Below, piece after piece: positions 1 to 31,623 of a DNA stretch of 35,543 bases. A program made the position numbers and the translations under genes. How positions within the stretch are numbered: the stretch's first letter is position 1; each line of letters opens with the position of its first letter. This DNA is from Bacteroidota bacterium (lineage in GTDB: Bacteria > Bacteroidota > Bacteroidia > Bacteroidales > CG2-30-32-10). The DNA lies in contig JAAXXA010000002.1 in assembly GCA_013334735.1 (NCBI GenBank), forward strand, positions 1-35,543. The letters run 5' to 3'. The notes beneath the pieces are model-generated. The model searched no databases. It had not been told where the DNA came from and saw only the letters and a list, made by a program, of their open reading frames with translations.

Positions 1-106
1 ACCACGACCACGACCCCGACCTCGACCACGACCTCGACCTCGACCACGACCACGACCCCGACCTCGACCCCGACCACGACCACGACCACGACCCCGACCT
101 CGACCC
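1..106. repeat. Tandem hexamer array (ACCNCG) x17, cut by the window edge
   Basis: There are 17 consecutive ACCNCG units from base 1, with N limited to A, C or T. A 24-nt higher-order unit accacgaccacgaccccgacctcg recurs at 1-24, 43-66 and 79-102. Confidence 0.95.
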
Positions 107-124
107 TATAAAAAACAATCCTAA
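2..124 (+). CDS. Possible 3' end of a plus-strand ORF ending in a (Pro-Arg)n tail (partial)
   Basis: The frame starting at base 2 reads CCN CGA repeatedly, with the variable base at the Pro wobble position. It then reads CCC TAT AAA AAA CAA TCC TAA, with the stop at 122-124. The Gly-Arg frame on the minus strand is immediately preceded by TAG (108..106) and so has no start. A non-coding repeat is an equally open reading. Confidence 0.3.
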   Translation, partial: PRPRPRPRPRPRPRPRPRPRPRPRPRPRPRPRPRPYKKQS

Positions 125-136
125 CATATAAAATCC

Positions 137-442
137 TTATTTCTGAGCATCAGGAAGTCTAGTTATAAACGTAAAATCTGCTATAGAATCAGTATTAATC
201 CAAACAGCATTAACAAAAGGTTCTACTTCGGAAAACTCTTCTTTTTTAAGAGCATCTGAAAATCTACCTGAATCTGCAATCCAAGCCGCTTTTTCAAGTT
301 TAACAAATTTACCTTTTATTTCAGTTACTTTTCCAGTAATGTGATAAGTGACTGTGCGAATAAATACATTGTCCCCAATTTCAAAAGGCAAATCATTTTT
401 AACACCAAGTAATTCTTTCAAATCTTTCAAACTAAATTCCAT
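137..442 (-). CDS. Hypothetical early protein (101 aa)
   Basis: Intact ORF with AAGGAGG 8 nt upstream of the ATG at 442. I recognise no motif. Confidence 0.8.
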   Translation of the reverse strand: MEFSLKDLKELLGVKNDLPFEIGDNVFIRTVTYHITGKVTEIKGKFVKLEKAAWIADSGRFSDALKKEEFSEVEPFVNAVWINTDSIADFTFITRLPDAQK

Positions 443-496
443 TTTATTTTCCTCCTTAATAATCTGCCGTGGAACGAATCGAACGTTCTTGATATT

Positions 497-532
497 TAAT
501 TATAAGTGAGTGAGCAGATCAACTTATAATTA
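497..532. repeat. Perfect 11-bp inverted repeat TAATTATAAGT / ACTTATAATTA with a 14-nt loop
   Basis: Read directly at 497-507 and 522-532, in the leader of the 137-442 gene. Confidence 0.8.
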
Positions 533-589
533 TATCACGCAATGTGCTGCTGGACTAGCGGCTGACCTTCAGCTAACACGGCAACCAAA

Positions 590-615
590 TAAAAACATTG
601 CTGGTTTTTCCCAGC
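590..615 (-). terminator. Second, weaker hairpin+U-tract element
   Basis: GCTGG-GAAAAA-CCAGC is followed by AATGTTTTTATTT on the minus strand. It shares the 10-mer AAAACATTGC (592-601) with 857-866. Confidence 0.3.
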
Positions 616-702
616 TGTCAGAGGGTTTCCAATTCACCGTCCCCACAACACGCATATTCTACCAGTAGCCGGATAGACGCAGAAATAAAATACAGGTCTT
701 TT

Positions 703-773
703 GCGATTATATCGGATTTGAACCTTAGACATCCCTTTCAGGTGCTCTACCAAACTGAGCTAACTATAATCGC
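703..773 (-). ncRNA. tRNA-like element lacking a recognisable anticodon arm (not a canonical tRNA)
   Basis: The minus strand reads GCGATTATAGTTAGCTCAGTTTGGTAGAGCACCTGAAAGGGATGTCTAAGGTTCAAATCCGATATAATCGC. It has an acceptor-like helix GCGATTATA/TATAATCGC, a D arm GCTC-AGTTTGGTA-GAGC and a T loop GG-TTCAAAT-CC. The anticodon position holds only CCT-GAA-AGG, and the T stem has only 2 Watson-Crick pairs. Confidence 0.5.
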
Positions 774-856
774 TACTGGTACGCCGAAATGAAGTCGTCG
801 CGCCTGATGCCCAGCTACGCTTTACCCTTCCGTCCAGACTTACTATGGAAACCATT

Positions 857-884
857 AAAACATTGCCGTGATATCGCTCACGGC
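857..884 (-). terminator. Hairpin terminator after the ERF-like gene
   Basis: GCCGTGA-GCGATA-TCACGGC (7 bp) is followed on the minus strand by AATGTTTTAAT. On the plus strand the same hairpin is followed by CGGCGTTTTT, so it may work in both directions. Confidence 0.5.
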
Positions 885-892
885 CGGCGTTT

Positions 893-1534
893 TTAAAGGA
901 GAACTTGTTCAGGTACTTTTAATGGTTTATCTACAAATCCAACTTGATTTTCTTCAATCTTTTTATTCATTGATTTCATTATCTCGTCTATCTGAGATAC
1001 ATCTAATCCATGTACAGTGTTCTTATTTGCGTCGCCAGTAACATTCTTCATTATTTCCTGCATTTGTGACAATTTAATTTTGCTTGTTCTGACGGCCTCT
1101 TTTATCTGTTCATTAGCCAATTTACGAATTTGCTCATTAGGGTCGTCTACAGACAGTGTTTTTGACTTTTTTTCCGGCTGTGTTTGAGCTTTATTTATCT
1201 CATCGGCAGAAGCTATAGAATCAATAATTCCCAAACCTAAAAAACCAAGACATCTACCAACAGCCGATGTCTCGCAATTCTCCATTGCGCTTGTTTTGTT
1301 GATATATCCATCACCCCAAGTAGCTTGGGAATAGCCTGTGAAAAAACGCTCCGGCTTGTTAATATCTGGAATAACAGTTGCTTTTATTACAACCATGTCA
1401 TCATCTGTTTTAGAAACTAATTCAGTCCTGATACAACCTTGTGGATATAGCTTGTTAAATTCAAGCACTCTGTCAGAAACTAGGATATATTTTTTACCTT
1501 TAATATCTATTGCTTTGTCTTTAAGATCACTCAT
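893..1534 (-). CDS. Putative ERF/Rad52-superfamily single-strand annealing protein (213 aa from the internal Met)
   Basis: The start at 1534 has AAAGGTGG upstream and an ATGAGTGA overlap with the preceding ORF. The pattern VVIKATVI...TGYSQA...NKTSAMENCETSAVGRCLGFLGLGIIDSIASADE resembles the P22 Erf core (YYVKATATI...TGATSSYARKYCLNGLFGIDD) as I recall it. Confidence 0.5.
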   Translation of the reverse strand: MSDLKDKAIDIKGKKYILVSDRVLEFNKLYPQGCIRTELVSKTDDDMVVIKATVIPDINKPERFFTGYSQATWGDGYINKTSAMENCETSAVGRCLGFLGLGIIDSIASADEINKAQTQPEKKSKTLSVDDPNEQIRKLANEQIKEAVRTSKIKLSQMQEIMKNVTGDANKNTVHGLDVSQIDEIMKSMNKKIEENQVGFVDKPLKVPEQVLL

Positions 1535-1811
1535 AAAAACCACCTTTTCCGTATTCTTCTTTAGGCTCTTCCGCAATCTTTTGTTTTTTCTCATAAGCAA
1601 TAACTTCAATAGCTACTTTTTGAGATAATAAAGCTATGCTTCCAATATCCTGTACACCAAAAAAGTCAGTCTGTTTCCAATTTCCTTCTTTGTCTTTGTA
1701 GCTTTTTTGAAACTTAAAAGATTTTCTGGCATAGTTTTTCCCTTCTACGGGCTGCTCAAATAGAGCGCATTCTACATCTCCAAACTTCCATACACGTGTT
1801 GGTTTAGCCAT
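1527..1811 (-). CDS. Hypothetical 94-aa protein, translationally coupled to the ERF-like gene
   Basis: GAAGGAG lies upstream of the ATG at 1811. The stop overlaps the next start. A role as a small nucleic-acid-binding partner is only a guess from position. Confidence 0.75.
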   Translation of the reverse strand: MAKPTRVWKFGDVECALFEQPVEGKNYARKSFKFQKSYKDKEGNWKQTDFFGVQDIGSIALLSQKVAIEVIAYEKKQKIAEEPKEEYGKGGFYE

Positions 1812-1812
1812 T

Positions 1813-1956
1813 TTATACTCCTTCTTCTCTAATTTCGTCTACTTTTCTGTCCCAGTATTCATCTTCCAAATCTGCTATATCTTCATCATCCGCGTATTGG
1901 TCCTCAGGACAGCCTGCTAAGTGATAACCACTGCATAAACATACTTCACAAAACAT
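1813..1956 (-). CDS. Small Cys-containing acidic protein (47 aa, below the ORF-track cutoff)
   Basis: Hand translation gives MFCEVCLCSGYHLAGCPEDQYADDEDIADLEDEYWDRKVDEIREEGV. It fills the gap between neighbouring ORFs exactly, and its stop sits in the RBS of the next gene. Confidence 0.5.
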   Translation of the reverse strand: MFCEVCLCSGYHLAGCPEDQYADDEDIADLEDEYWDRKVDEIREEGV

Positions 1957-1957
1957 T

Positions 1958-2125
1958 TCAAAACTCCAATTCGTTTTCTACAAACTCTTCAAAGTCTGAG
2001 CGATGATAAAAAGTGATTATAACTTCTTTCATTTTAGTAATATCTAAATAAGGATATTTAGTTATCAATTCTTTCAATTTTTCATCTGAAATAAATAACT
2101 GCAAACTCCAATTTTTCATTTTCAT
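1958..2125 (-). CDS. Hypothetical 55-aa protein (start moved to MKMKNW)
   Basis: GAGGAG lies upstream of the ATG at 2125. The longer ORF-track version would overlap the zinc-ribbon ORF. Confidence 0.6.
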   Translation of the reverse strand: MKMKNWSLQLFISDEKLKELITKYPYLDITKMKEVIITFYHRSDFEEFVENELEF

Positions 2126-2126
2126 A

Positions 2127-2273
2127 TTATTTCTCCTCTGGGATATTAAAAGATATGATATATCCGCAATTATCACATTTATAATTTTCAATATCTTCAG
2201 TTCTTTTTATAAATGTTGCCGTTGTTTCCAAGTCACAGAACGGGCACCAAAAAGGATCGATTTTATTATTCAT
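2127..2273 (-). CDS. Zinc-ribbon protein (48 aa)
   Basis: Hand translation gives MNNKIDPFWCPFCDLETTATFIKRTEDIENYKCDNCGYIISFNIPEEK, with CPFC...CDNC pairs. It has an ATGA start/stop overlap with the upstream gene. Confidence 0.6.
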   Translation of the reverse strand: MNNKIDPFWCPFCDLETTATFIKRTEDIENYKCDNCGYIISFNIPEEK

Positions 2274-2536
2274 TTTGCTTTCCTGTATTTTTTAATAATC
2301 TCGTTTTTTCTCCACTTGAATTGATATAATCTTGCTATCCAGAGAAAAAATGTTCCAACTAACCAAATTCCAACATACACTTGCCATAAAATGGTATAGA
2401 ATTTGAGCATATACCAGAAACTTTTTATTCCCCAGGAATAGGCTATCAAATACAAAACCAGACTTCCTCCCAATCCTACGATCAACATTGTAATTCCAAA
2501 AATTTTAATATCTCTTTTCATGATTTTCCAGATCAT
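2270..2536 (-). CDS. Small integral membrane protein (88 aa, about 3 hydrophobic helices)
   Basis: The start at MIWKIMK has GGAG upstream and an ATGA overlap with the preceding stop. The translation contains long hydrophobic stretches. Confidence 0.75.
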   Translation of the reverse strand: MIWKIMKRDIKIFGITMLIVGLGGSLVLYLIAYSWGIKSFWYMLKFYTILWQVYVGIWLVGTFFLWIARLYQFKWRKNEIIKKYRKAK

Positions 2537-2748
2537 TTTGATTCTCCGCAATACTTTTCAAAATTCTGTTCCCATTTCTTTTGAAAATCCGCGAATGATT
2601 GAACAGTAACATGATTGTAATTCTTGATAACATTTTCGATTGCTTTTTCGTAGAACCATTGAAGCCAAGTAATGATTTCTTCGCTGCTTTTGTTTTGTTT
2701 CTCCATAACGTCAAGGTTGAACTGAAGAGCTAACTCGTAACTACTCAT
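2533..2748 (-). CDS. Hypothetical 71-aa protein
   Basis: The start at MSSYEL follows GGAGG-TTTTT, immediately after the T8 tract of the leader terminator. Confidence 0.75.
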   Translation of the reverse strand: MSSYELALQFNLDVMEKQNKSSEEIITWLQWFYEKAIENVIKNYNHVTVQSFADFQKKWEQNFEKYCGESK

Positions 2749-2758
2749 AAAAACCTCC

Positions 2759-2821
2759 AAAAAAAATTAGCCACAACCCCGACCGATTTCTCGGCCCCCG
2801 CAAAGGAAGGGCTGTGGCTAA
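2759..2821 (-). terminator. Intrinsic terminator in the leader of the 2748 gene
   Basis: On the minus strand a 13-bp stem forms (TTAGCCACAGCCC/GGGTTGTGGCTAA, one G-U). Inside it is a 12-nt bulge and a GGCCGA-GAAA-TCGGTC hairpin. The structure is followed by T8 and then GGAGG. Confidence 0.6.
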
Positions 2822-2829
2822 TAAGCCGG

Positions 2830-2863
2830 CCTAATATTTGTTTTGCGGGTGCCAAATATTAGG
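2830..2863 (-). promoter_or_regulatory. Leader hairpin (11-bp perfect stem CCTAATATTTG/CAAATATTAGG)
   Basis: Read directly. Its loop CCCGCAAA (minus) is complementary to TTTGCGGG in the bulge of the downstream terminator. Confidence 0.6.
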
Positions 2864-2923
2864 TCAAAAACTTTTTACAGTTTTTAATTTATTTTTGGAA
2901 AATAATTGATTTATTATTTATTA

Positions 2924-2951
2924 ATTATAACTACATTTTTTAATTTGTCAA
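2924..2951 (-). promoter_or_regulatory. Sigma70-type promoter (TTGACA-16-TATAAT) pointing left
   Basis: The -35 is at 2951..2946 and the -10 at 2929..2924. It overlaps the last codons of the RHH gene. Confidence 0.6.
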
Positions 2952-2952
2952 G

Positions 2953-3108
2953 TCATTTTTTATTTTTTTCTAAAAATTCAATTAATATAGTTTTAACAAG
3001 GTTTGAAATTGGCCTATTTTGTCTTACAGCCTCATCGTTAAGACCCTTCAATAATTCTTCAGAAATGCGAAGATTAAACCTTTTGTTATTTATTTGTCCA
3101 ACATCCAT
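2953..3108 (-). CDS. Ribbon-helix-helix (CopG/Arc-like) DNA-binding protein, 51 aa
   Basis: Hand translation gives MDVGQINNKRFNLRISEELLKGLNDEAVRQNRPISNLVKTILIEFLEKNKK. This fits the classic RHH pattern (beta strand KRFNLRI, then two helices). AAGGACGG lies upstream. The ORF is below the ORF-track cutoff. Confidence 0.75.
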   Translation of the reverse strand: MDVGQINNKRFNLRISEELLKGLNDEAVRQNRPISNLVKTILIEFLEKNKK

Positions 3109-3150
3109 AATAACCGTCCTTTTATAAATTTTGCAGCCATTTTAGGAAAT

Positions 3151-3190
3151 TTGCACGACCCTTCCATAAATTTATGCTTTTTTGCACGAC
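3151..3190. promoter_or_regulatory. Direct repeat TTGCACGAC x2 (period 31 nt) upstream of the RHH gene; operator-like
   Basis: Copies lie at 3151-3159 and 3182-3190 (GTCGTGCAA on the minus strand). The spacing is about 3 helical turns. Confidence 0.4.
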
Positions 3191-3244
3191 TTCGGACGTG
3201 CTTTAAGTGGTTTAATGCGGCATTGCTGCCGCACCCGTCACCAT

Positions 3245-3340
3245 TTAATAATTTTGTATAATTAGTCTGTCAGTTCCTTCAATTTTTATGACTGTTGTAT
3301 GATTTTCTAAATCTTCCGTAAATCCTATAGTTACCTTCAT
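3245..3340 (-). CDS. Possible 31-aa ORF
   Basis: GGAAGGAG lies upstream of the ATG at 3340. The translation is MKVTIGFTEDLENHTTVIKIEGTDRLIIQNY. It is very short, so confidence is low. Confidence 0.35.
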   Translation of the reverse strand: MKVTIGFTEDLENHTTVIKIEGTDRLIIQNY

Positions 3341-3352
3341 AAAATCTCCTTC

Positions 3353-3517
3353 CTATTTACTTTTAGGTTTTTTCTCTTGCTGTTGGTTGTTATCATATGC
3401 GCTAGAAGCGATTGCAACGGCCTGCTCTTGAGATTTACCCTCATTGATAAGGATTGAGGCTATTCTTGCGATGTATTGATCTTTCGTTTCTCCTGTATTT
3501 GGATTCGGTATCGGCAT
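3353..3517 (-). CDS. Small protein (54 aa)
   Basis: The translation is MPIPNPNTGETKDQYIARIASILINEGKSQEQAVAIASSAYDNNQQQEKKPKSK. It is the first ORF downstream of the 3581 promoter. Confidence 0.55.
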   Translation of the reverse strand: MPIPNPNTGETKDQYIARIASILINEGKSQEQAVAIASSAYDNNQQQEKKPKSK

Positions 3518-3551
3518 AAAAATACCCCCAAGATGTTTTTATCTTAGTGGT

Positions 3552-3581
3552 ATTATAAAGCAGATAATTATCGGAATTCAA
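3552..3581 (-). promoter_or_regulatory. Sigma70-type promoter (TTGAAT-18-TATAAT) with the palindrome GATAATTATC in the spacer
   Basis: The -35 is at 3581..3576 and the -10 at 3557..3552. A perfect 10-bp palindrome sits between them. Confidence 0.55.
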
Positions 3582-3588
3582 TAGTTTT

Positions 3589-3948
3589 CTATTTTATTTT
3601 TGAATATTTTACCCTATTTATAGTACAACCTTTTACTGTTAATAAAACAATAAACACCGATATTTTTCCACATTTTGAACATTTTATTAATTGTTCATTC
3701 TTTGTTTCGTTTTTTACCCTATTCCCGTATGCCAACGAACAACATTCCGGGCAATAATAAGGGCGCACCAAGCTGAAAGTAGAATGAAGCTCTTTGTTTA
3801 TTTCTTCTATTGCTTCTATGGCATATAAAACCGTTGATTTTGGGTTGTTAACAATACAGGCCACAGGGCTTAAAAGACCGGAAACTCTATGGATTGTTTT
3901 CCCGTCGCATTTTGCTAAAACTTCGGACTTAAACTCTACGTATTTCAT
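3589..3948 (-). CDS. Hypothetical zinc-ribbon protein (119 aa)
   Basis: It has CPEC...CSKC pairs. GGAAGGGG lies upstream of the ATG at 3948. Confidence 0.8.
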   Translation of the reverse strand: MKYVEFKSEVLAKCDGKTIHRVSGLLSPVACIVNNPKSTVLYAIEAIEEINKELHSTFSLVRPYYCPECCSLAYGNRVKNETKNEQLIKCSKCGKISVFIVLLTVKGCTINRVKYSKIK

Positions 3949-3973
3949 AAAAATCCCCTTCCTACTTTAAGTA

Positions 3974-4008
3974 GGAGAAAACGGGCCGGGTAATTACTCC
4001 GACCCGGC
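3974..4008 (-). terminator. Hairpin GCCGGGT/ACCCGGC followed by CCGTTTTCTCC
   Basis: A 7-bp GC-rich stem at 4008..4002 / 3991..3985 is followed by a short T tract on the minus strand. It lies downstream of the acidic gene. Confidence 0.45.
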
Positions 4009-4096
4009 GGCTTACCACACCGCAAGGCGACATTAACCGGCTTCGGACGGTTCCTTTCGGAGCGTTTTAATTCCCCCTTTCTGGGGAACCCGTCAA

Positions 4097-4594
4097 CTAA
4101 TAATTATATCTATAACATACATATCTAGACCAATCACAACCGCCAAGATCATCGCTATGGTCTGCAACATCAAGCGGGTCAACTGCATACATAATACCAT
4201 AAGTTATGTCGTCTATATCAATTGTATCCTCAAAGTACTCAGCGTTGCTGTCGTCTCTCATCCCGTCTTGGTAAGGTTGTACATTTAATTTTAGCAATTC
4301 TTCAATAATTTCCGCATCTTTTGCGTTGTCCAACTCAACTGCGTCGTCTGGGACATAAGGATTAGGACTGCCATAGCTAAATTCCTCCGTGTCTACGATC
4401 TCATAAGTTGGTCTGTCCGCCTCTCCATGAGCAAGATAATAAGTCCCGTCCTCTAAGTTGTCAATTACTAATTGTGCCTCTGCCTCTGTCTCGTACTCAT
4501 CACAGTTACTATCAGGATTGCTATTATACCAGTGATCAATATGAGGTGGCAAACTGCCCCTGTAATAACAAGGCGTTACTTTAATCCTATACAT
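4097..4594 (-). CDS. Highly acidic early protein (165 aa), first gene of the leftward operon
   Basis: GGAAGGAG lies upstream. By my count there are about 39 Asp+Glu against 9 Arg+Lys. Confidence 0.85.
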   Translation of the reverse strand: MYRIKVTPCYYRGSLPPHIDHWYNSNPDSNCDEYETEAEAQLVIDNLEDGTYYLAHGEADRPTYEIVDTEEFSYGSPNPYVPDDAVELDNAKDAEIIEELLKLNVQPYQDGMRDDSNAEYFEDTIDIDDITYGIMYAVDPLDVADHSDDLGGCDWSRYVCYRYNY

Positions 4595-4713
4595 ATAATC
4601 TCCTTCCCTCTATTGAGGGAGTGTTACAACCGGAGTAATTAGTTCCGATTGACCCCCTTTTCTTAGGAGGATTTTGAGACCGCAAAACTTTGCGCTCTCT
4701 GTTGTACGCCCAC

Positions 4714-4759
4714 AGTATGACACAGATTTCTAAGTTTGTCAATCCCACTTTCAGTCGGA
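4714..4759 (-). promoter_or_regulatory. Leftward promoter P_A: TCCGACT element + TTGACA-17-TGtCATACT
   Basis: The -35 is at 4742..4737, the -10 at 4719..4714 with an extended TG, and the upstream element AGTCGGA (plus) at 4753-4759. The same architecture occurs at 28675-28719 and 31624-31669. Confidence 0.6.
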
Positions 4760-4928
4760 TTTTTACAAAAATGGGAGAAAATGCTTGTAGATCAAGGAAA
4801 AAAACTTTAAAAAATATTTTTTTTTGTTCAAAAACCCCGACCAAACGTCGGTATTTATGCCAATAATATATATTTAATTATATATAATATAAGTAATAAA
4901 AAAATAGTTGAAAAAAAACAAACTCGTA

Positions 4929-5018
4929 GAACTATTGATAACACTACATTCTTATTTTTTTTGGTATCGTAACTCTATATAAGACAATTAGTCACGAACT
5001 ATTTGACAACACTATATT
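4929..5018 (+). repeat. Two copies of a ~22-nt box GAACTATTGAYAACACTAYATT
   Basis: Copies lie at 4929-4950 and 4996-5018. The second contains the -35 of the rightward promoter. Confidence 0.7.
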
Positions 5019-5032
5019 TTTTATGTTATAAT
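5003..5032 (+). promoter_or_regulatory. Rightward sigma70-type promoter (TTGACA-18-TATAAT)
   Basis: The -35 is at 5003-5008 and the -10 at 5027-5032. It sits upstream of a ~440-nt leader preceding terS. Confidence 0.6.
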
Positions 5033-5252
5033 TCTTCTATAAGAGCTACAATTAGCGACCGAGCTATGCGAGGCAACCGTTTACCCATACGACCAACAAC
5101 TAACAAAATATATACCACAAATATATATTAGGTTTCACAATTATCACATCATCACCCACAAATCAACATCCCAAAAGTATCAAAATTTAGCTATCCACAA
5201 CAAACAAATTCCTATAACATGTATTATGTTAAGTACAACACAGTTTGTATTA

Positions 5253-5273
5253 ACATTGTAGGTACATTGTAGG
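5253..5273 (+). repeat. Tandem ACATTGTAGG x2 (period 11) with a third partial TACAT
   Basis: Read directly at 5253-5262 and 5264-5273. Confidence 0.85.
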
Positions 5274-5330
5274 GGGTACATCAAAAATTGGGGGAGTGTT
5301 TCTAGGTAGGGTTTGTTTAGAGATTACCTC

Positions 5331-5352
5331 TTAATGACATATTAATGACATA
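5331..5352 (+). repeat. Perfect tandem duplication TTAATGACATA x2
   Basis: Read directly at 5331-5341 and 5342-5352, about 130 nt upstream of terS. Confidence 0.9.
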
Positions 5353-5375
5353 TAGGAATTATTTTAGGGGTAAGC

Positions 5376-5501
5376 ATGACAAATTTAGATATGGCATTAC
5401 TGATAGACAGGTATAGAAGAGAGATATGTAGATTATGTAATGTATTGAAGTTAGAAATAATATTTGAGAATGATGGGGTAATATGGAGAATAAGATATTA
5501 A
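5376..5501 (+). CDS. Possible 41-aa ORF overlapping the terS start
   Basis: AGGGGT lies upstream of the ATG at 5376. The translation is MTNLDMALLIDRYRREICRLCNVLKLEIIFENDGVIWRIRY. Support is weak. Confidence 0.25.
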   Translation: MTNLDMALLIDRYRREICRLCNVLKLEIIFENDGVIWRIRY

Positions 5502-6106
5502 AGAAAAAGTATATAGTAGATAATTTGTATAAGTATTTAACAGTTAAGCAGCAGAGATTATTTGATTTATATTATTTGTTTAACAGGGATACATTAAAGG
5601 CTGCAAGGATGTATATAAAAGAGACGGGTGGGAAAGAAGGAAGGAACGGAGAGATAGCGATAAAGTCACATTACAGGAATTATCCAATATTAAGATTAGC
5701 GATAGAAGTTAATGATTGTAATATAAGTGATTTATCTGAGGAAGAGCCAATAGAAAGTCCAACTCTTGAGTGGACATTAGTGGAGACGATGAAACTGTAT
5801 AAGCATACTGAGAAAGAGTTTTTTAAATATGAAGAGAAAGTGAGTGAATGGAAAGAAGAGTATGGTACTATTGAACAATTAATAGAGATGAGGGATAAAT
5901 ATAAGAAGGAGATGAAAGAGTTGCTAAAGCAGATTACTGACTTTCAGAATAAGTTTGGTGAGATGCTTAATGATGATAGTTTAAAAATTGGTATGTTAAG
6001 TGACTCTGATTTAATGACAGAACTAAAAAAGTATACGAATGAGGCACAGGAATATTTAGCTAAAGAAAAGTGGTATAATAGGAATAAAATAAAAGAAGTG
6101 GCTTAG
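5483..6106 (+). CDS. terS: Putative terminase small subunit
   Basis: It lies immediately upstream of terL. The N-terminal LTVKQQRLFDLYYLF...KAARMY resembles the HTH start of small terminases (LTxKQxxF...). Confidence 0.55.
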   Translation: MENKILKKKYIVDNLYKYLTVKQQRLFDLYYLFNRDTLKAARMYIKETGGKEGRNGEIAIKSHYRNYPILRLAIEVNDCNISDLSEEEPIESPTLEWTLVETMKLYKHTEKEFFKYEEKVSEWKEEYGTIEQLIEMRDKYKKEMKELLKQITDFQNKFGEMLNDDSLKIGMLSDSDLMTELKKYTNEAQEYLAKEKWYNRNKIKEVA

Positions 6107-7723
6107 ATGGAAGTAAACAATGATTTAATTAACAAAAGTAATCAATATAAATTTGTTTATTTAAAGAGACTGATTATAGAACTAAGGGCAAGACAGAAAG
6201 AATTTTACTATAGTTATGAACCGCCTTCTGAGAAACATTATTTACTTCATTCGTGCGGCAAGAAGATATTGATACTCAAAGGGGCACCACGTACAGCAAA
6301 AACGACATCTGTGCTTATGGATGCCGCTATGATTATGAAAGATGAGCATCCATTTATTACTAAGTATAAGAACATACCGGACTTAAAAAAAAGGTGTTGG
6401 GTGATTGCTACTAACTTTAAGAAAGTGCAAGAAGTATTACTGCCAATGTTTCTGAATGTTATTCCTAAAGTGAATATTAAAAATGTATGGAATGATCCTA
6501 GAAATAATAAATATGTCATTGAGTTAAATACTGGGTGGCATATTTTATTTAAGTCTCAGGAAGAAAAGATCGGCACTATTACCTCAGCTGACGCTTCAAT
6601 AATCATTATGGATGAACGTGTTGATAGTGAAGACTGGAGAGAGCAAATACGAAGCCGTGTTATTTCTACGGATGGTATGCTTTACTTCACTATGGATAGT
6701 AACGAAGAAGATGAATGGGTACACGGGCTTAAGCAGTTGTCTTACTCTCAATTGTTTCACTTTGAGTTAAAAGATAATGCTAAGAATCTTCCTAAGGAAG
6801 AACTGGATAGGCTTGAAAATGAATTGGATGATATAGCTAAAGAAAAGTTGCTTTATGGTAACTACGCTAATAGAGATATCGTTTATATTTTTAAACCTGA
6901 TATCTGGAACGAATCAAACTATGTTGAGATTCAACCTAAAAGATTTAGCATAGCTTACGGAGAGTTAACGCCTGATGAAGAAGGCTATATCAGAATGTTT
7001 AAAGATGTTCAGTCAAATGTAAAGTATGTAGTGGGATTTGACCCTTGCGGTGGGGGTGGAAGAAATAGCCATGGGTTGCATGTGTTCGATGAGTTTGGAG
7101 AACAATGTCTCATGATGATCGATAGTAAAATATCTTATGTCAACGCTCCAGAATTATTTATTATGCCTATTTTGAACTATTACAATAAAGCTTTATTTGT
7201 TAGTGAAAACAGAGAGCATGGAAGATATGTGGTAAATAAAATGAATGATCTTGGATATTATAATTTATATTCGGATCAGATGTGGAAGCCAATGGAAAGC
7301 TCAAAGGGCGTACTAAAAACTCAGATTGAGTTTGGAATTATTACTACAGAAAAAAGTAAAAAGGATATGAAGAATAAGACACTGGATGATATTGTAAATG
7401 GGAAAATATTACTCCACGATAGACTGACTAAAATGCAGTTAGAACATTTTGTGGAAGATTATAAAGACAGGGATAGCCAGAAGCTTGAACCTAAAATGCA
7501 CGGTATTAAAATTATGGGAGAACCGGATTTAAAAAACAGTGATGATGATTTGGTTATGTCTTTATTTTTTACTGATAGGGCCTTAAATCATCTTGGTTAT
7601 TTAAACAATGTGATAAGACAAAACAGGTCTAAAAAACCAATGATGAAAACTATAGATGACTTATTGAACATAAAAGTAATACGTCAGGGTGGCGGTGGGT
7701 TTTATCAAAGTTTAGGATATTAG
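6107..7723 (+). CDS. terL: Terminase large subunit
   Basis: It has a Walker A-like LKGAPRTAKT, a Walker B IIIMDE, and a C-terminal nuclease-like region (VVGFDPCGGGG). Size and position are typical. Confidence 0.9.
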   Translation: MEVNNDLINKSNQYKFVYLKRLIIELRARQKEFYYSYEPPSEKHYLLHSCGKKILILKGAPRTAKTTSVLMDAAMIMKDEHPFITKYKNIPDLKKRCWVIATNFKKVQEVLLPMFLNVIPKVNIKNVWNDPRNNKYVIELNTGWHILFKSQEEKIGTITSADASIIIMDERVDSEDWREQIRSRVISTDGMLYFTMDSNEEDEWVHGLKQLSYSQLFHFELKDNAKNLPKEELDRLENELDDIAKEKLLYGNYANRDIVYIFKPDIWNESNYVEIQPKRFSIAYGELTPDEEGYIRMFKDVQSNVKYVVGFDPCGGGGRNSHGLHVFDEFGEQCLMMIDSKISYVNAPELFIMPILNYYNKALFVSENREHGRYVVNKMNDLGYYNLYSDQMWKPMESSKGVLKTQIEFGIITTEKSKKDMKNKTLDDIVNGKILLHDRLTKMQLEHFVEDYKDRDSQKLEPKMHGIKIMGEPDLKNSDDDLVMSLFFTDRALNHLGYLNNVIRQNRSKKPMMKTIDDLLNIKVIRQGGGGFYQSLGY

Positions 7724-7731
7724 GAGTTTTT

Positions 7732-7986
7732 ATGGGTGATAAAGAAATGCTTAAAGAAATTAAAGAAATTATTGATATGCCTGAATGGAAAGAACTAGCT
7801 TCCGAACCTAAAGCTAAAATTATAAAGAAAAAGTTAAACGATACATATACAGTAATGTGTAAAGAAGATGAAAAAAAAATGGATGAAGAGGATGAAGTTG
7901 AAGATTTATATGATAGTAAACCAAAGATGAAAGATAAAAATATGGCTGCTTATATTATAGCAAGACTTAAAACAAAGAAGGAATAA
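7732..7986 (+). CDS. Small charged hypothetical protein (84 aa)
   Basis: TAGGAG RBS. The protein is Lys/Glu/Asp-rich. Confidence 0.8.
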   Translation: MGDKEMLKEIKEIIDMPEWKELASEPKAKIIKKKLNDTYTVMCKEDEKKMDEEDEVEDLYDSKPKMKDKNMAAYIIARLKTKKE

Positions 7987-8044
7987 AGTTATTTATTAAA
8001 TACTGAGATCAAGGGTACGTCCTGAGATCAAGGAGTTTTATATA

Positions 8045-10048
8045 ATGGATTTATCCAAAGTAGTTATCACTAAACGTGATATTACTAATATCAAAAATCT
8101 TGAGTATATTGAAAATCTTAATTTTAAGACACTAGATCAATTTAGAGCTGAGGCTGAAAAACATTATACTGATATTTCTAAAGACTTTCAGTATATTAAA
8201 GAGTTTGTTATCGAAAATAAACAGTGGAATTTTTTCGATGATAAAGTTAAAACTAAAATGTATAACTACGCTGGGCAAGAACTCTATGATTTTTATAAGA
8301 CTTATAATAAAGAACAAGATTTAAAAAAGCCAAAACGTTCTATCAATATTACTAAGACATATCTTGAAACCCTTGTTGCTTCTTTTGCCGAAATAGACCC
8401 TCTGCCTATGGCAATAAGTAAATATGACTATAATATTAAAGATGAAACAAATGATAAGATCAATATATTACTAAATAGCATTTTTAATGAAGAAAATAAT
8501 TTTGATGAGCTTTATGAAGAAGCTTTGTTTAAATCATTTTGTTATCAATATTGTTTTATTCAGCCCGTTATTGATATTGACAAATCAGAAACACGCACTC
8601 CTATCAAACTAAGAATTATTGACCCTGAAGATGTGCGAATCGACCCAATGGCTAAAGATTTGAATGAATGCGACTATCTTTATCAGAAAGTAAAAATGAG
8701 ATATTGGCAAATTAAAGAATTGTGGAACTATGAAGAAGAAATAAAAAAAGATGATGAACCTAAAGATAACGAGATGTGTGATTTAATACACTGGTGGTTT
8801 AGAGGGAAAAACCCTGACGGTAAAACACAGTGGTATTTATTTACTGAGTATGATAAAAAATGGTTAAAGCCTATCGATAAAAAAGGAAAGTTTTATCCTG
8901 AAATGATTGTGTTTGATCATCTTCCTCTCGTTAAATTCTGTCCTGAAAAATATAAAGACGAAACGTCCAGCGATTCTCTGGCTCTTGAAATTATTCCTAT
9001 CAACATTCAGTATAACATTAATCTTAGTGAAGAAGACTATAACATGCTGAGATGGTATAACAGGCCGAAAAAAGTGATTGGTTCTATCCCAGTTGATATG
9101 GCTAATAATGCTAATATTCCTAATGGAGTTATGTCAATAGGGCCAGGTTCTGATGTTGTTCCCTATCAAGTCGATATTCTTCCAACCGCTGAACTTGAAC
9201 AAAGAAAACAATTCCTAAACCAAGAAGTAAAACAAGCTACCGGTATAGACTTTGAACTTCTGGCAGGAGGAAAACCTAAAGGTACGTATTCAAATAATCT
9301 ATTACAAACAATGCAGAGTAAAGCAGATAATAAAACTGATATGATGCAAAAGCATATTTTTTCCGCCATAGAAGAACTGGCATATAAAGCATTGTATCTA
9401 CAATATAGATACATGGATGGAAAAAGCATAGTTATTTTTGATGGCAAAATACAAGATAGCATTGTTATTCATCCGGATGATATTTTAAATATTAAATATA
9501 AAATTGAGATTGATACTAAAGATACCAATCTTATGACACGTGAAACTAAGTTTCAAACTCTCACTCAATTTATGCAGTACAGTCAGGGTAATCCTCTCAT
9601 ACTTTATCCAATGGCTCAAGTATTACAAAATGGCATGCCTCACTTTTTCCCTGATAAAGTGATGGACGCTTTTGGGATTATGTTTGGAAAAGCTATAGAT
9701 CAATTAAGTGCTACTCAACTTCCTCCTAATGGGATTGCATCTTCACAACCAGCTCCTTTTAACCAGACTTTGGCTGCTGGAATGTCTAACCAGCTTCCAG
9801 TAGCTGGAGCTGGTAGTGAAATGCCAGAAGAAGATAATACGGACGGAGTTTCAAATGAACAGCTTTTGAATGAATGGAAAAACGCTGAAGATCAATTGAA
9901 AGAAGCTGGATATAGCGAAGATCAGATAAATGAGTTTTATGACGCTCTTGTAGCGGAGAAAATAGCGGATGGTACTCCAAGAGGAGAAATTATTATGAAT
10001 TTAGAAGAAGCAGTAAATAAGTCTGTAAATAATATGAAGAAAAAATAA
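8045..10048 (+). CDS. Putative portal protein (667 aa)
   Basis: Size and position fit: after terL and before the scaffold and capsid genes. AAGGAG RBS. No motif-level confirmation is possible by eye. Confidence 0.65.
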   Translation: MDLSKVVITKRDITNIKNLEYIENLNFKTLDQFRAEAEKHYTDISKDFQYIKEFVIENKQWNFFDDKVKTKMYNYAGQELYDFYKTYNKEQDLKKPKRSINITKTYLETLVASFAEIDPLPMAISKYDYNIKDETNDKINILLNSIFNEENNFDELYEEALFKSFCYQYCFIQPVIDIDKSETRTPIKLRIIDPEDVRIDPMAKDLNECDYLYQKVKMRYWQIKELWNYEEEIKKDDEPKDNEMCDLIHWWFRGKNPDGKTQWYLFTEYDKKWLKPIDKKGKFYPEMIVFDHLPLVKFCPEKYKDETSSDSLALEIIPINIQYNINLSEEDYNMLRWYNRPKKVIGSIPVDMANNANIPNGVMSIGPGSDVVPYQVDILPTAELEQRKQFLNQEVKQATGIDFELLAGGKPKGTYSNNLLQTMQSKADNKTDMMQKHIFSAIEELAYKALYLQYRYMDGKSIVIFDGKIQDSIVIHPDDILNIKYKIEIDTKDTNLMTRETKFQTLTQFMQYSQGNPLILYPMAQVLQNGMPHFFPDKVMDAFGIMFGKAIDQLSATQLPPNGIASSQPAPFNQTLAAGMSNQLPVAGAGSEMPEEDNTDGVSNEQLLNEWKNAEDQLKEAGYSEDQINEFYDALVAEKIADGTPRGEIIMNLEEAVNKSVNNMKKK

Positions 10049-10060
10049 AAGGAGATAAAC

Positions 10061-10729
10061 ATGGATGAATTAAGGAATGACATTTTGGATTATGCTGGAA
10101 TAGATGATACTACAAGCGAAACGCTGGAGCAATCTCAGTACACTAAAGCGGATGAGAATAGAGAAAGAGAAAGGGCCGCTCAGGCTCTTATGCAGGAAAG
10201 ATATAAAGTTAGTTCTAATAATGATTCTATAACAAAAGAAATGCAGGATATGAAAAATCTTGTTATGAAAATAGCTAAAGAAAAAGAAGATTTAAAAAAT
10301 GAGATCAGTCAGTTGAAAGGACATGTTACTACTGTTAGTGAAGAAAATAATCAAAGAGCACTGAAAGAAATTATGGATATCATTGAGAAAGAAAAGAGCG
10401 GTATTAAAGCGGATGAGGTTTTATCTCAGTATTATAACGAACAAGATATAATTCAAAATTTACAAAAAAATTCAGCTATTGGAAAAGTGCTTACTCCTAA
10501 GGAGCAACTCGCTATTTTAAATTTTGAAAATGTTGCTAAGGAAAACGCAGAGCTAAAACAAAAGCTTGAAAACAGAGGCTTAATGTTACATAGGCCTATT
10601 GGTAAAATAAGTTCATCCAGCGTAATCCCTAATGATGACGATGTCGATGTACGCAGTCTTTCATATGAGGATTATAAGGCTTTACAGAAAAAGAGACAGA
10701 TGAAAGCAATGGAAAGCATGCTTGGATGA
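10061..10729 (+). CDS. Putative scaffolding protein
   Basis: It lies between the portal and capsid genes. The protein is charged with coiled-coil-like composition. Confidence 0.55.
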   Translation: MDELRNDILDYAGIDDTTSETLEQSQYTKADENRERERAAQALMQERYKVSSNNDSITKEMQDMKNLVMKIAKEKEDLKNEISQLKGHVTTVSEENNQRALKEIMDIIEKEKSGIKADEVLSQYYNEQDIIQNLQKNSAIGKVLTPKEQLAILNFENVAKENAELKQKLENRGLMLHRPIGKISSSSVIPNDDDVDVRSLSYEDYKALQKKRQMKAMESMLG

Positions 10730-10752
10730 CAATCTAAAATAAGGAGAAAAAT

Positions 10753-11967: not shown

Positions 11968-11985
11968 TAAGGGAGGTAAAAATTT

Positions 11986-13906: not shown

Positions 13907-14059
13907 ATGAAATACATAGATAAGATAATAGTAATAAAAAATAAAGTTGTTAATTTTATTACTAAGTATACTGAATTAAAAGAATTGCATTTAATAAGAA
14001 TTGATAGATATATTGAAGAAAACAAGATGATAGATAAATATATTTATAGAGAGGTATGA
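13907..14059 (+). CDS. Possible 50-aa ORF between the two glycosyltransferase genes
   Basis: The ATG comes directly after the upstream stop, and there is an ATGA overlap with the next start. No motif. Confidence 0.35.
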   Translation: MKYIDKIIVIKNKVVNFITKYTELKELHLIRIDRYIEENKMIDKYIYREV

Positions 14060-30935: not shown

Positions 30936-30948
30936 ATTTACACCTCAT

Positions 30949-30991: not shown

Positions 30992-31057
30992 TTAAAACAC
31001 CGATTAACCGGAAAATAAATAATCTGCAATACTTATTTAAGTTCCTCTATTCTCATT

Positions 31058-31598: not shown

Positions 31599-31623
31599 AA
31601 ATTTCCTCCTCTTAAATATACTG

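What the first reader, a model, noticed from the sequence alone, without database searches (positions are those of the whole stretch)
443..892. Anticodon-less tRNA mimic inside a terminator-bounded non-coding unit of the early operon
About 450 nt between the stop of the ERF-like gene (893) and the next start (442) have no credible ORF and visibly higher G+C than the flanks. On the minus strand, 773->703 has an acceptor-like helix (GCGATTATA/TATAATCGC), a textbook D arm (GCTC-AGTTTGGTA-GAGC) and a T loop (GG-TTCAAAT-CC). Together these form the tRNA elbow. The anticodon arm, however, is reduced to CCT-GAA-AGG, and the T stem has only 2 Watson-Crick pairs. A perfect 9-bp helix (accagtagc 661-669 / gctactggt 772-780) clamps the module. 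Two look-alike hairpin+AAUGUUUU elements (857-884, 590-615) share the 10-mer AAAACATTGC and delimit a ~265-nt unit. A long closing stem plus a tRNA elbow without an anticodon is the layout described for bacterial and phage YrlA-type Y RNAs. Large phage-borne RNAs (ROOL, GOLLD) are also tRNA-associated. No Ro60/Rsr gene is in the window, so any partner is unknown.
Basis: partly seen in the sequence, partly recalled or inferred. Interest (0 to 1): 0.8.

Follow-up and report, generated by a model that had tools for sequence, protein, structure and literature searches.

The report
Phage tRNA look-alike without anticodon arm
A phage early operon carries an inserted, GC-rich 265-bp cassette with a tRNA-derived gene that keeps the tRNA elbow but has only a 3-bp stub for an anticodon arm, so it cannot decode; it is not a Y RNA, and it belongs to a scattered, apparently undescribed set of phage tRNA look-alikes whose function is untested.

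Summary
On the minus strand, 773->703 has a perfect 9-bp acceptor helix, a consensus D arm, a consensus T loop, a CCU-GAA-AGG stub for the anticodon arm, and a T stem of 2 Watson-Crick pairs. ARAGORN calls no tRNA. Rfam tRNA gives 16.7 bits (cut-off 29). The "clamp" is 10 bp and beyond chance. Both hairpins are followed by an imperfect ~33-nt direct repeat, so the unit looks like an inserted 265-bp cassette (44.7% GC against 33.6%).

The YrlA reading fails. Rfam YrlA matches only the D arm (15 of 69 bits). In YrlA the long stem replaces the anticodon arm and the acceptor is capped; here it is the reverse. No Ro60 gene is present.

The element is tRNA-derived, probably from tRNA-Phe. Only two other sequences share the stub: L085 and L088, both beside tRNA genes and both with intact stems. 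A wider set of phage tRNA-likes with short or absent anticodon arms exists, and one orthologous pair shows compensatory acceptor changes.

Relatives of both flanking genes lack the insert. The flanks have no homologues and fold no better than shuffles.

Best reading: a non-decoding tRNA-shaped RNA acting as an RNase P substrate or decoy. An inert relic is the main rival. Function is inferred, not shown.

The parts
865..884 (-). Hairpin T1 (GCCGUGAGCGAUAUCACGGC) just after the recombinase stop codon. It is terminator-like on both strands. On the minus strand the U run starts 4 nt after the stem.
   Evidence: A 12-bp outer helix (917-928 with 849-860) can pair the U-rich tail with upstream sequence (I2).
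835..866 (-). Direct repeat copy R1 (GCAATGTTTTAATGGTTTCCATAGTAAGTCTG), the left border of the cassette.
   Evidence: D2; 0/1000 shuffles reach the alignment score.
782..834 (-). GC-rich 5' leader with no homologue found.
   Evidence: no match anywhere; composition.
772..781 (-). 5' arm of the 10-bp leader/trailer helix (UACCAGUAGC). It shares G773 and C772 with the acceptor helix.
   Evidence: I4; 0/200 shuffles.
703..773 (-). tRNA-like module. Acceptor 773-765 / 711-703; U8 A9 plus D arm 762-744; A743; stub CCU-GAA-AGG 742-734; variable region GAUGUC 733-728; T arm 727-714 with only G724 G723 / C715 C714 paired; discriminator-like A702.
   Evidence: sequence; no tRNA called; RF00005 16.7 bits; chance expectation 0.00; class model 46.9 bits; this fold -16.1 against MFE -17.2 kcal/mol.
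670..702 (-). AU-rich 3' trailer between the acceptor and the 3' clamp arm. It holds a weak hairpin, AGAC(C)...G(C)GUCU.
   Evidence: hand pairing; not conserved anywhere.
660..669 (-). 3' arm of the 10-bp leader/trailer helix (GCUACUGGUA).
590..615 (-). Hairpin T2 (GCUGGGAAAAACCAGC) followed by AAUGUUUUUA; terminator-like end of the unit.
568..601 (-). Direct repeat copy R2 (GCAATGTTTTTATTTGGTTGCCGTGTTAGCTG), the right border of the cassette.
494..537 (-). Probable promoter of the next gene: extended -10 TGATATAAT (537-529), overlapped by a 14-nt-arm palindrome (522-535 with 494-507), operator-like.
   Evidence: hand reading; I1. The simple promoter scan did not flag it because the -35 is weak.
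443..457 (-). Shine-Dalgarno AAGGAGG (457-451) and spacer before ATG 442 of the 101-aa gene.

Best explanation
The gap holds a tRNA-derived, non-decoding tRNA look-alike. It is most likely a tRNA-Phe paralogue whose anticodon arm was reduced to CCU-GAA-AGG.

It arrived on a roughly 265-bp GC-rich cassette inserted between the recombinase gene and the promoter of the next gene. The cassette is bordered by imperfect ~33-nt direct repeats, each preceded by a hairpin.

Proposed mechanism, all steps inferred:
1. It is transcribed by read-through of the leaky first hairpin from the early promoter.
2. The RNA folds into the acceptor/T stack plus the D/T elbow. All tertiary-contact positions are kept: U8, A14, G15-C48, G18 G19 with U55 C56, and U54-A58.
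3. It is therefore recognised as a tRNA by RNase P, the 3'-end trimming enzymes, the CCA-adding enzyme and the modification enzymes.
4. The product is a stable RNA of about 70 nt that cannot reach a codon.
5. It acts by shape. It either occupies or diverts a tRNA-binding factor (for example a tRNA-cleaving defence nuclease), or it serves as an RNase P cut site separating the upstream mRNA from what follows.
6. The 10-bp leader/trailer helix competes with the first two acceptor pairs and could gate this processing.

This copy departs from its two sister elements: its T stem has only 2 pairs and its acceptor has 9.
For: Identity as tRNA-derived (shown):
- The D arm and T loop match the consensus exactly and are flanked by a 9/9 helix. 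The combined pattern is expected 0.00 times by chance.
- A model built from 16 other short-armed tRNA-likes, with the window excluded, scores it at 46.9 bits. The next hit in 35.5 kb scores 13.4 bits.

No decoding (shown or inferred):
- ARAGORN finds no tRNA or tmRNA.
- The anticodon position is a 3-bp stem with a 3-nt loop.

Same family elsewhere:
- L085 has CCUGAAUAGG and L088 has CCUGAAGAGG, in the same place.
- L085 has 7/7 acceptor and 5/5 T-stem pairs; L088 has 6/7 (C1-A72 mismatch) and 5/5, one a G-U. They score 49.6 and 41.7 bits on RF00005.
- Both lie next to canonical tRNA genes that include tRNA-Phe(GAA).
- The three share the stub, but their acceptor and T stems have diverged while staying paired in L085 and L088.

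Wider set:
- Of 43 unique IMG/VR and metagenome elements with 9-19 nt where a tRNA has 22 or more, 16 have 7/7 acceptor pairs. Partner shuffles give a mean of 0.55 and a maximum of 4.
- The orthologous pair L046/L058 shows three compensatory acceptor pair changes.

Insertion:
- Direct repeats border the unit and its GC is an outlier.
- Relatives have only a 6-nt gap after the recombinase gene and 30-50 nt before the 101-aa gene.

Fold plausibility and context:
- The cloverleaf-like fold lies within 1.1 kcal/mol of the MFE.
- The clamp is beyond chance.
- The same early region has two twister ribozymes in intergenic spacers, so RNA cleavage elements between early genes are a theme in this phage.
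- tRNA-Phe-like traits are read by hand from the sequence and compared with my own knowledge of E. coli tRNA-Phe identity: U20, A26, variable AUGUC, A73 and a GAA triplet.
Against: - No expression data exist.
- No promoter-like site lies inside the unit, and a terminator-like hairpin sits upstream.
- The T stem has only 2 Watson-Crick pairs and RF00005 gives 16.7 bits, well below the sister elements. This copy may already be decaying.
- In the 122-nt clamp context an alternative fold is 9 kcal/mol better than clamp plus cloverleaf.
- The whole unit folds no better than shuffles.
- The stub family has only 3 members, too few for statistics.
- Paired stems in many wider-set members could simply be inherited from recent parental tRNAs.
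- The class model's score is inflated, because the set was collected with a pattern taken from this element.
- No partner protein is known. No neighbouring protein recurs across the set, apart from Tad2-like genes in 3 loci.
Confidence: 0.5

Rival explanations
1. Inert relic. A truncated tRNA paralogue was picked up on a small cassette from a tRNA-carrying phage. In this genome it is untranscribed or functionless and is on its way to being lost.
For: - It is unique to this phage. Relatives of both flanking genes lack any such gap.
- No homologue of the leader or trailer was found anywhere.
- The T stem is broken and the tRNA score is sub-threshold, unlike the sister copies.
- There is no internal promoter, and a terminator-like hairpin lies upstream.
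- The unit has no excess folding stability.
Against: - 19 perfect helix pairs (9 acceptor plus 10 clamp) and every tertiary-contact nucleotide are intact. The only damage is one 3-nt gap.
- The clamp, absent from other members of the set, is beyond chance.
- Phage genomes seldom keep 265 bp of junk.
- The stub is conserved across three otherwise diverged elements.
Confidence: 0.36
2. YrlA-type Y RNA. A long stem would bind a Ro60/Rsr protein and the tRNA-like module would recruit an exonuclease.
For: The D arm is identical to the YrlA consensus over 19 nt. A long helix closes the module. Phage-encoded YrlA RNAs are known (PMC4201824).
Against: - Rfam YrlA gives 15 bits against a cut-off of 69, and only the D arm aligns.
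- The topology is opposite: YrlA runs T arm, capped acceptor, D arm, with the Ro-binding stem at the anticodon position.
- No GNCGAAN0-1G motif is evident in the module, read by hand.
- No TROVE protein is found in any scanned ORF.
- No YrlA match in 30 related or set loci.
Confidence: 0.03
3. DNA-level element. The 10-bp inverted repeats (781-772 / 669-660) would be the termini of a miniature mobile element. Alternatively the tRNA-like sequence would be a remnant of an integration site (attP) in a tRNA gene.
For: Perfect 10-bp inverted repeats flank a 122-bp segment. Direct repeats flank the 265-bp unit. tRNA genes are common integration targets (general knowledge).
Against: - No second copy lies in the window, and no exact match to the three unit segments tested occurs in IMG/VR.
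- No target-site duplication adjoins the inverted repeats.
- No integrase or transposase was found in the window ORFs scanned.
- An attP normally carries only the 3' part of a tRNA, not both halves with the middle removed.
Confidence: 0.05
4. Cis-acting RNA switch. The tRNA-like fold and the alternative clamp fold would be two states that control termination at T2, or the stability of the upstream mRNA.
For: Two competing folds exist. The unit ends in a terminator-like hairpin. This phage uses structured leaders elsewhere: 2745-2925 has z = -5.7.
Against: The next gene appears to have its own promoter downstream of T2 (hand reading), so T2 read-through is not needed. No ligand-binding or T-box features were found and there is no Rfam match. 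There is no conservation.
Confidence: 0.06

Closest known systems
YrlA / bacterial Y RNAs (Rfam RF02553; Chen et al. 2014, PMC4201824)
   Same: A non-coding RNA with a tRNA-like domain that keeps the D- and T-arm consensus and the elbow, cannot decode, and is known from phages. M. smegmatis YrlA is cut by RNase P and receives CCA.
   Different: YrlA is permuted. The Ro-binding stem takes the anticodon-arm position and the acceptor is a capped stem-loop with a GNCGAAN0-1G motif. Here the order is that of a native tRNA, with an open acceptor and a closed stub at the anticodon position. The model score is 15 of 69 bits and there is no Ro60 gene.
mascRNA / MALAT1 tRNA-like (Rfam RF01684) and plant mitochondrial t-elements
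   Same: tRNA-shaped modules embedded in longer transcripts, lacking a working anticodon arm, and acting as RNase P/RNase Z cut sites that define RNA ends (my own knowledge). The sister element L085 gives a weak RF01684 match of 20.7 bits.
   Different: Those are eukaryotic or organellar, with no sequence relationship. Processing of the phage element is untested.
Canonical phage tRNA genes and tRNA pseudogenes in phage tRNA arrays
   Same: Same D arm, T loop, variable region and discriminator. The two sister elements sit inside or beside tRNA arrays.
   Different: The anticodon arm is 9 nt instead of 17. No anticodon loop can form. ARAGORN rejects it. This copy stands alone in a genome with no tRNA genes.
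allo-tRNAs with 8/4 or 9/3 acceptor/T-stem layout (Mukai et al. 2017, PMC5389517)
   Same: A longer acceptor stem combined with a shorter T stem can still give a roughly 12-bp acceptor branch that E. coli enzymes process. Here the count is 9 + 2 Watson-Crick pairs, plus a possible U-G and G-A.
   Different: allo-tRNAs have long variable arms, long anticodon stems and real anticodons, and they decode. This element has none of these.
tmRNA tRNA-like domain
   Same: A tRNA-like acceptor/T domain without an anticodon.
   Different: tmRNA lacks a D stem and carries an mRNA-like reading frame and pseudoknots. ARAGORN and Rfam find no tmRNA here.

Membership tests
YrlA (RF02553) | Reaches the Rfam gathering score over the whole model | tested here: not met
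   15.0 bits against 69; only model positions 63-81 (the D arm) align.
YrlA (RF02553) | Permuted tRNA-like domain: T arm, then capped acceptor stem-loop, then D arm, with the stem formed by the RNA ends at the anticodon-arm position | tested here: not met
   The order here is acceptor 5' strand, D arm, stub, T arm, acceptor 3' strand. The long helix extends the acceptor. The YrlA layout is taken from PMC4201824.
YrlA (RF02553) | Encoded next to a Ro60/Rsr (TROVE) gene | tested here: not met
   No TROVE match in 32 window ORFs scanned against Pfam or PHROGs. Caveat: the contig ends 440 nt downstream of the unit, inside a repeat, so part of the early region is missing.
YrlA (RF02553) | Binding to Ro60 through a conserved bulged helix | not testable with these tools
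   Needs co-immunoprecipitation or a binding assay.
Canonical tRNA (RF00005 / ARAGORN) | Called by a tRNA finder, or reaches the Rfam gathering score | tested here: not met
   ARAGORN finds 0 genes in the window. RF00005 gives 16.7 bits against 29.
Canonical tRNA (RF00005 / ARAGORN) | 5-bp anticodon stem with a 7-nt loop presenting an anticodon | tested here: not met
   Only CCU-GAA-AGG (9 nt) lies between A26 and the variable region.
Canonical tRNA (RF00005 / ARAGORN) | D-arm and T-loop consensus with the tertiary-contact nucleotides | tested here: met
   UAGCUCAGUUUGGUAGAGCA and GGUUCAAAUCC are exact, and C48 is present.
Phage tRNA-likes with short or absent anticodon arm (ad hoc set defined here, model R1) | Significant match to a model built from 16 other members | tested here: met
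   46.9 bits, E about 4e-14. Caveat: the members were collected with a pattern taken from this element.
Phage tRNA-likes with short or absent anticodon arm (ad hoc set defined here, model R1) | Intact 7-bp acceptor and 5-bp T stem in the canonical register | tested here: not met
   5/7 and 2/5 in the canonical register (row L025, which is identical to the window). The element instead forms a 9-bp acceptor in a shifted register.
CCUGAA(N)AGG stub family (window, L085, L088) | Same 3-bp stub sequence directly after the D stem, a 6-nt variable region ending in C48, and discriminator A | tested here: met
   Alignment A2; 90% identity to L085 over 50 nt.
ROOL / GOLLD large phage RNAs | Match to RF03087 or the GOLLD model | tested here: not met
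   No match at the gathering score or at E up to 10. As a positive control, ROOL was detected at 244 bits in L087.
tmRNA | tRNA-like domain plus a tag reading frame, detected by ARAGORN or Rfam | tested here: not met

The most novel reading that the evidence does not exclude
Phages encode a distinct, so far undescribed class of non-decoding tRNA mimics: a full acceptor/T/D elbow with the anticodon arm shortened or deleted. These would be kept by selection and would act as decoys, inhibitors or processing handles for tRNA-recognising machinery. One attractive target is the anticodon-arm-cutting defence nucleases of the PrrC, PARIS and OLD type, since the mimics resemble substrates that cannot be cut. 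On this reading the window's copy, with its 9-bp acceptor and 10-bp clamp, is a working stand-alone variant installed as a cassette in an early operon.
Probability: 0.2. Interest if true: 0.75.

Novelty: new variant of a known kind. Interest (0 to 1): 0.42.

Why it matters
If it is only a decaying tRNA paralogue, it is a minor curiosity.

If the short-armed tRNA look-alikes are functional, they would add an RNA-based, non-decoding use of the tRNA shape to phage biology. Phage tRNAs are now seen mainly as replacements for tRNAs destroyed by host defence nucleases (for example PMC12445682). A tRNA body with no arm to cut could be a different counter-measure.

These elements are missed by ARAGORN. 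Where they score on Rfam they register only as plain tRNA matches. They are therefore invisible or mislabelled in current phage annotation.

This element is a compact test case: one copy, no other tRNAs in the genome, and clear cassette borders.

Tried and rejected
**Searches for homologues of the whole gap or its parts (all negative)**
- blastn of 400-950 and megablast of 1-12000 against INPHARED phages: no match.
- blastn of the unit against PLSDB plasmids: no match.
- blastn and nhmmer against 24 loci encoding relatives of the flanking proteins: nothing.
- Exact-word scans of IMG/VR for the core, the leader and the trailer: 0 hits each.

**Synteny**
- The contig holding the identical 101-aa protein (L025) is 100% identical to the window, so it adds nothing.
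- Homologues of the 101-aa protein and of the recombinase were searched in the large protein collection. The closest are 70% and 75% identical. Their contigs have no comparable gap and no Rfam RNA.

**Stub-family scans**
- GTDB genomes gave 5 hits, all chance matches inside unrelated sequence with no D arm or T loop.
- A looser IMG/VR scan gave 13 chance hits plus L088 again.

**Readings rejected on evidence**
- YrlA, ROOL, GOLLD, tmRNA, group I intron and other Rfam families: rejected on model scores.
- Coding potential of the gap: four small ORFs, no Pfam match.
- The clamp as a feature of the wider set: rejected, since only the window has one.
- A conserved protein neighbour across the wider set: all-against-all BLASTP of 436 neighbouring ORFs found none, apart from Tad2-like proteins in 3 loci.

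**Literature**
- Five full-text searches found no description of phage tRNA-likes lacking the anticodon arm. This is absence in the searchable library only.
Full report
**1. What is in the sequence**

I read 1-1500 on the minus strand. The gap between the stop of the upstream gene (893) and ATG 442 holds, in 5'->3' order:

- Hairpin T1 at 884-865, followed by AAUGUUUUAAU.
- A GC-rich leader.
- The tRNA-like module:
  - Acceptor helix: GCGAUUAUA (773-765) pairs with UAUAAUCGC (711-703).
  - D arm: UA-GCUC-AGUUUGGUA-GAGC-A (762-743).
  - Anticodon stub: CCU-GAA-AGG (742-734).
  - Variable region: GAUGUC (733-728).
  - T arm: UAAGG-UUCAAAU-CC (727-714).
- An AU-rich trailer.
- The sequence GCUACUGGUA (669-660).
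- Hairpin T2 at 615-600, followed by AAUGUUUUUAUUU.
- A stretch with an extended -10 (TGATATAAT, 537-529) overlapped by a 14-nt-arm palindrome.
- AAGGAGG and the ATG of the 101-aa gene.

The repeat finder confirms three features:
- the 9-bp acceptor helix (I6);
- a 10-bp, not 9-bp, leader/trailer helix, 781-772 with 669-660 (I4);
- a 13-nt direct repeat with 265-nt spacing (D2).

The terminator scan flags both hairpins on the minus strand. T1 is also flagged on the plus strand.

**2. Is it more than chance?**

- The combined pattern (D-arm halves, a 12-22-nt spacer, T loop) is expected 0.00 times in dinucleotide shuffles of the window.
- The 10-bp clamp directly abutting the acceptor is reached by 0 of 200 shuffled leaders.
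- The similarity after the two hairpins extends to about 33 nt (866-835 against 601-568). It is reached by 0 of 1000 shuffles.
- GC of 590-864 is 44.7% against a window mean of 33.6%, the 98.7th percentile of 275-nt windows.

The unit as a whole is not unusually stable:
- z = -1.73 for 443-900;
- z = +0.31 for 590-864;
- z = -0.52 for 655-790.

For comparison, the early leader at 2745-2925 in the same operon has z = -5.7.

The cloverleaf-like fold of 773-702 costs only 1.1 kcal/mol over the MFE (-16.1 against -17.2). In the 122-nt clamp context, however, another fold is better by about 9 kcal/mol.

**3. Detectors**

- ARAGORN finds no tRNA or tmRNA anywhere in the window.
- At gathering thresholds Rfam finds only a Twister-P5 ribozyme at 3185-3242.
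- With permissive thresholds on 400-950:
  - The tRNA model gives 16.7 bits (cut-off 29). It aligns a 6-nt remnant where the model has a 13-nt anticodon stretch, and a 3-nt gap in the 3' strand of the T stem.
  - YrlA matches only the 19-nt D arm, at 15 bits (cut-off 69).
  - No ROOL, GOLLD, tmRNA or intron match appears.

**4. Why it is not a YrlA-type Y RNA**

According to Chen et al. 2014 (PMC4201824), the YrlA tRNA-like domain is permuted:
- the stem formed by the 5' and 3' ends, which binds Ro60, occupies the anticodon-arm position;
- the variable loop and T arm come first;
- the acceptor is a closed stem-loop with a GNCGAAN0-1G motif;
- the D arm comes last.

The window's module is the reverse. 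It has the native tRNA order, an open acceptor extended by the clamp, and a closed stub at the anticodon position.

No TROVE/Ro60, RtcB, reverse transcriptase or integrase domain was found in 32 window ORFs scanned against Pfam or PHROGs.

One caveat applies. The window is the whole contig. It ends 440 nt downstream of the unit, inside a hexamer repeat, so downstream early genes are missing.

**5. Context**

The phage has no relative in INPHARED.

Genes on the minus strand run from perfect sigma-70-type promoters through small ORFs to a gene matching PF27148 (Slr1353_N) at 1534-893. Pfam ERF does not match it. The non-coding gap follows, then a 101-aa gene, then the repeat.

The plus strand encodes terminase, portal and tail proteins.

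The early region holds two Twister-P5 ribozymes in intergenic spacers:
- 3242-3185, 50.3 bits;
- 4097-4036, 38.3 bits against a cut-off of 37.6.

**6. Is the unit conserved?**

No.

- Relatives of the recombinase in IMG/VR (L001-L020) and of the 101-aa protein (L021-L024) have no similar DNA. Only one of these loci has any tRNA gene.
- In the large protein collection the nearest recombinase is 75% identical and the nearest 101-aa homologue is 70% identical.
- On their contigs the recombinase gene is followed after 6 nt by the next gene (L107-L109).
- The 101-aa homologues are preceded by gaps of only 30-50 nt (L079-L084).
- None of these loci has an Rfam RNA.

Taken with the flanking direct repeats and the GC contrast, the unit looks like a cassette inserted in this lineage.

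**7. Relatives of the tRNA-like module itself**

*The wider pattern.* A pattern requiring the D arm, a short spacer and the T loop found 53 IMG/VR contigs.

*The stricter pattern.* A stricter version found 3 metagenome contigs. Among these, L085 is 90% identical to the window over 50 nt. It has the same stub (CCUGAAUAGG), with a perfect 7-bp acceptor (including G3-U70) and a 5-bp T stem. It lies 130 nt upstream of a tRNA-Phe(GAA).

*The stub-specific pattern.*
- It found L088 in IMG/VR (CCUGAAGAGG), inside a 14-tRNA array.
- In 185,579 species genomes it found nothing but chance hits.
- A looser scan added no further members.

The stub family is therefore the window, L085 and L088. The stretch from the D arm through the stub is nearly invariant. 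The acceptor and T stems differ completely, yet stay paired in L085 and L088. Those two score 49.6 and 41.7 bits on RF00005.

All three have U20, A26 or G26, a variable region ending in C48, discriminator A and a GAA triplet. This is consistent with descent from tRNA-Phe. That is inference, based on a hand comparison with my own knowledge of tRNA-Phe identity elements.

**8. The wider set**

I collected 43 unique elements that ARAGORN does not call as tRNAs.

- Sixteen have 7/7 acceptor pairs, with 15 distinct acceptor sequences. When 3' strands are shuffled among elements, the mean is 0.55 and the maximum is 4.
- Thirty-five have a full T stem.
- Three (L040, L060, L068) have no anticodon arm at all. 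They are 60 nt long and score 45-50 bits on RF00005. L040 ends in ACCA.

Paired stems alone could be inherited from recent parental tRNAs. But the orthologous pair L046/L058, whose flanks are about 80% identical, shows three compensatory pair changes in the acceptor while keeping the same truncated middle. That indicates selection after truncation.

A covariance model built from 16 such elements, with the window excluded, scores the window's module at 46.9 bits. The next hit in the window scores 13.4 bits. This score is inflated, because the set was collected with a pattern derived from the window.

In the canonical register the window's copy has only 5/7 acceptor and 2/5 T-stem pairs. It compensates with a 9-bp acceptor in a shifted register. 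That layout recalls the 9/3 configuration tolerated in allo-tRNAs (PMC5389517).

The clamp is unique to the window.

No neighbouring protein recurs across the set, apart from Tad2-like (Thoeris anti-defence) genes next to 3 members. One member, L087, lies about 70 nt upstream of a ROOL RNA.

**9. Interpretation**

Shown:
- It is a tRNA-derived module that cannot present an anticodon.
- It belongs to a small stub family, and to a wider set of short-armed phage tRNA-likes.
- It sits on a lineage-specific cassette.
- It is not YrlA, ROOL, GOLLD, tmRNA or a canonical tRNA.

Inferred:
- It is transcribed by read-through. No internal promoter was found, and both hairpins have a 4-nt gap before the U run, which should weaken termination.
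- It folds into the elbow.
- It is handled by RNase P and the other tRNA enzymes.
- It acts by shape, as a decoy or a processing handle.

Work on tRNA-cutting defence nucleases makes a decoy or uncuttable-mimic role attractive. It has been shown that phage tRNAs escape P2-OLD partly through a shorter anticodon stem (PMC12445682). The decoy role is untested here.

The main rival is that this copy is an inert, recently acquired relic. Its broken T stem, its lack of a promoter and its absence from relatives all fit that reading.

I put the functional-mimic reading at about 0.5, the relic reading at about 0.36, and YrlA at about 0.03.

**10. Verdict**

This is a new variant of a known kind, the tRNA-like RNAs. 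Interest is moderate. It lies mainly in the wider set of phage tRNA look-alikes without an anticodon arm, which current tRNA finders miss.

Noticed in passing
window 3185-3242 (-) and 4036-4097 (-): Two Twister-P5 self-cleaving ribozymes sit in intergenic spacers of the same early region. They score 50.3 bits and 38.3 bits (cut-off 37.6). The second appears only in the permissive search. It is followed by GC-rich hairpins (4035-3949) before ATG 3948.
   Followed up: partly
window 2745-2925 (-): The leader between a perfect TTGACA-16-TATAAT promoter (2951-2924) and ATG 2747 is strongly structured (MFE -60.6 kcal/mol, z = -5.7). It ends in a long stem (UUAGCCACA...UGUGGCUAA) followed by U8, just before the ribosome-binding site. 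This looks like an attenuator or riboswitch-type leader. It has no Rfam match.
   Followed up: partly
window 1-105 (and L021 3850-3920): There are 17.5 copies of a hexamer (GGTCGN on the minus strand). They continue an ORF that starts at ATG 126 (MLGLFFIG...) and encode Ser-Arg/Gly/Trp dipeptide repeats; the contig ends inside the array. The same repeat lies directly upstream of the 101-aa homologue in the unrelated 74-kb viral contig L021, so it is a real, syntenic feature rather than an assembly artefact.
   Followed up: partly
L026-L078, L085-L088 (for example L040 3315-3374, L060 4349-4408, L068 825-884): Dozens of viral contigs carry tRNA-like genes with perfect 7-bp acceptor and 5-bp T stems but only 9-19 nt where the anticodon arm and variable loop should be. 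Three have no arm at all (60 nt; L040 ends in ACCA). ARAGORN misses them; Rfam scores them as tRNA at 30-53 bits. Some occur as tandem runs in high-GC contigs (L030, L031, L035, L038, L049). I found no description in the searchable literature.
   Followed up: partly
L087 530-1130 (-) and 1202-1266 (-): A ROOL RNA (244 bits) lies about 70 nt downstream of a short-armed tRNA-like (stub CUUCAUGGAAG). It is followed by several tRNA genes, including Met and Phe.
   Followed up: no
L040 2769-3224, L043 315-602, L067 9173-9508: Tad2-like (Thoeris anti-defence 2, PF11195) genes lie within about 0.1-0.8 kb of three short-armed tRNA-likes. This was the only protein family recurring among 436 neighbouring ORFs.
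   Followed up: partly
window 30306-35486 (-) and 14056-15009 (+): Sugar and metabolic genes are unusual for a 35-kb phage contig: the C-terminal domain of a TPP-dependent enzyme, a family 2 glycosyltransferase, a DegT/DnrJ-type aminotransferase, and a family 10 (fucosyltransferase-like) glycosyltransferase inside the structural module. An Ant-like anti-repressor is at 30306-30935.
   Followed up: no
window 494-537 (-): An extended -10 (TGATATAAT) is overlapped by a palindrome with 14-nt arms and a 14-nt spacer (ATTTAATTATAAGT / ACTTATAATTATAT). This looks like a repressor-controlled promoter for the 101-aa gene.
   Followed up: no
window 849-860 and 917-928: A perfect 12-bp inverted repeat (AAACCATTAAAA / TTTTAATGGTTT) encloses the recombinase stop codon and hairpin T1. 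It pairs the U-rich tail of T1 with coding sequence and could modulate termination.
   Followed up: no
L034 3367-3449: An RT-17 RNA (RF03020, 43.4 bits) lies 1.7 kb from a short-armed tRNA-like in a viral contig.
   Followed up: no
window 9038-9101 (+): A weak second hit of the class model R1 (13.4 bits, rough E 0.02) falls inside the portal gene. It is probably chance.
   Followed up: no
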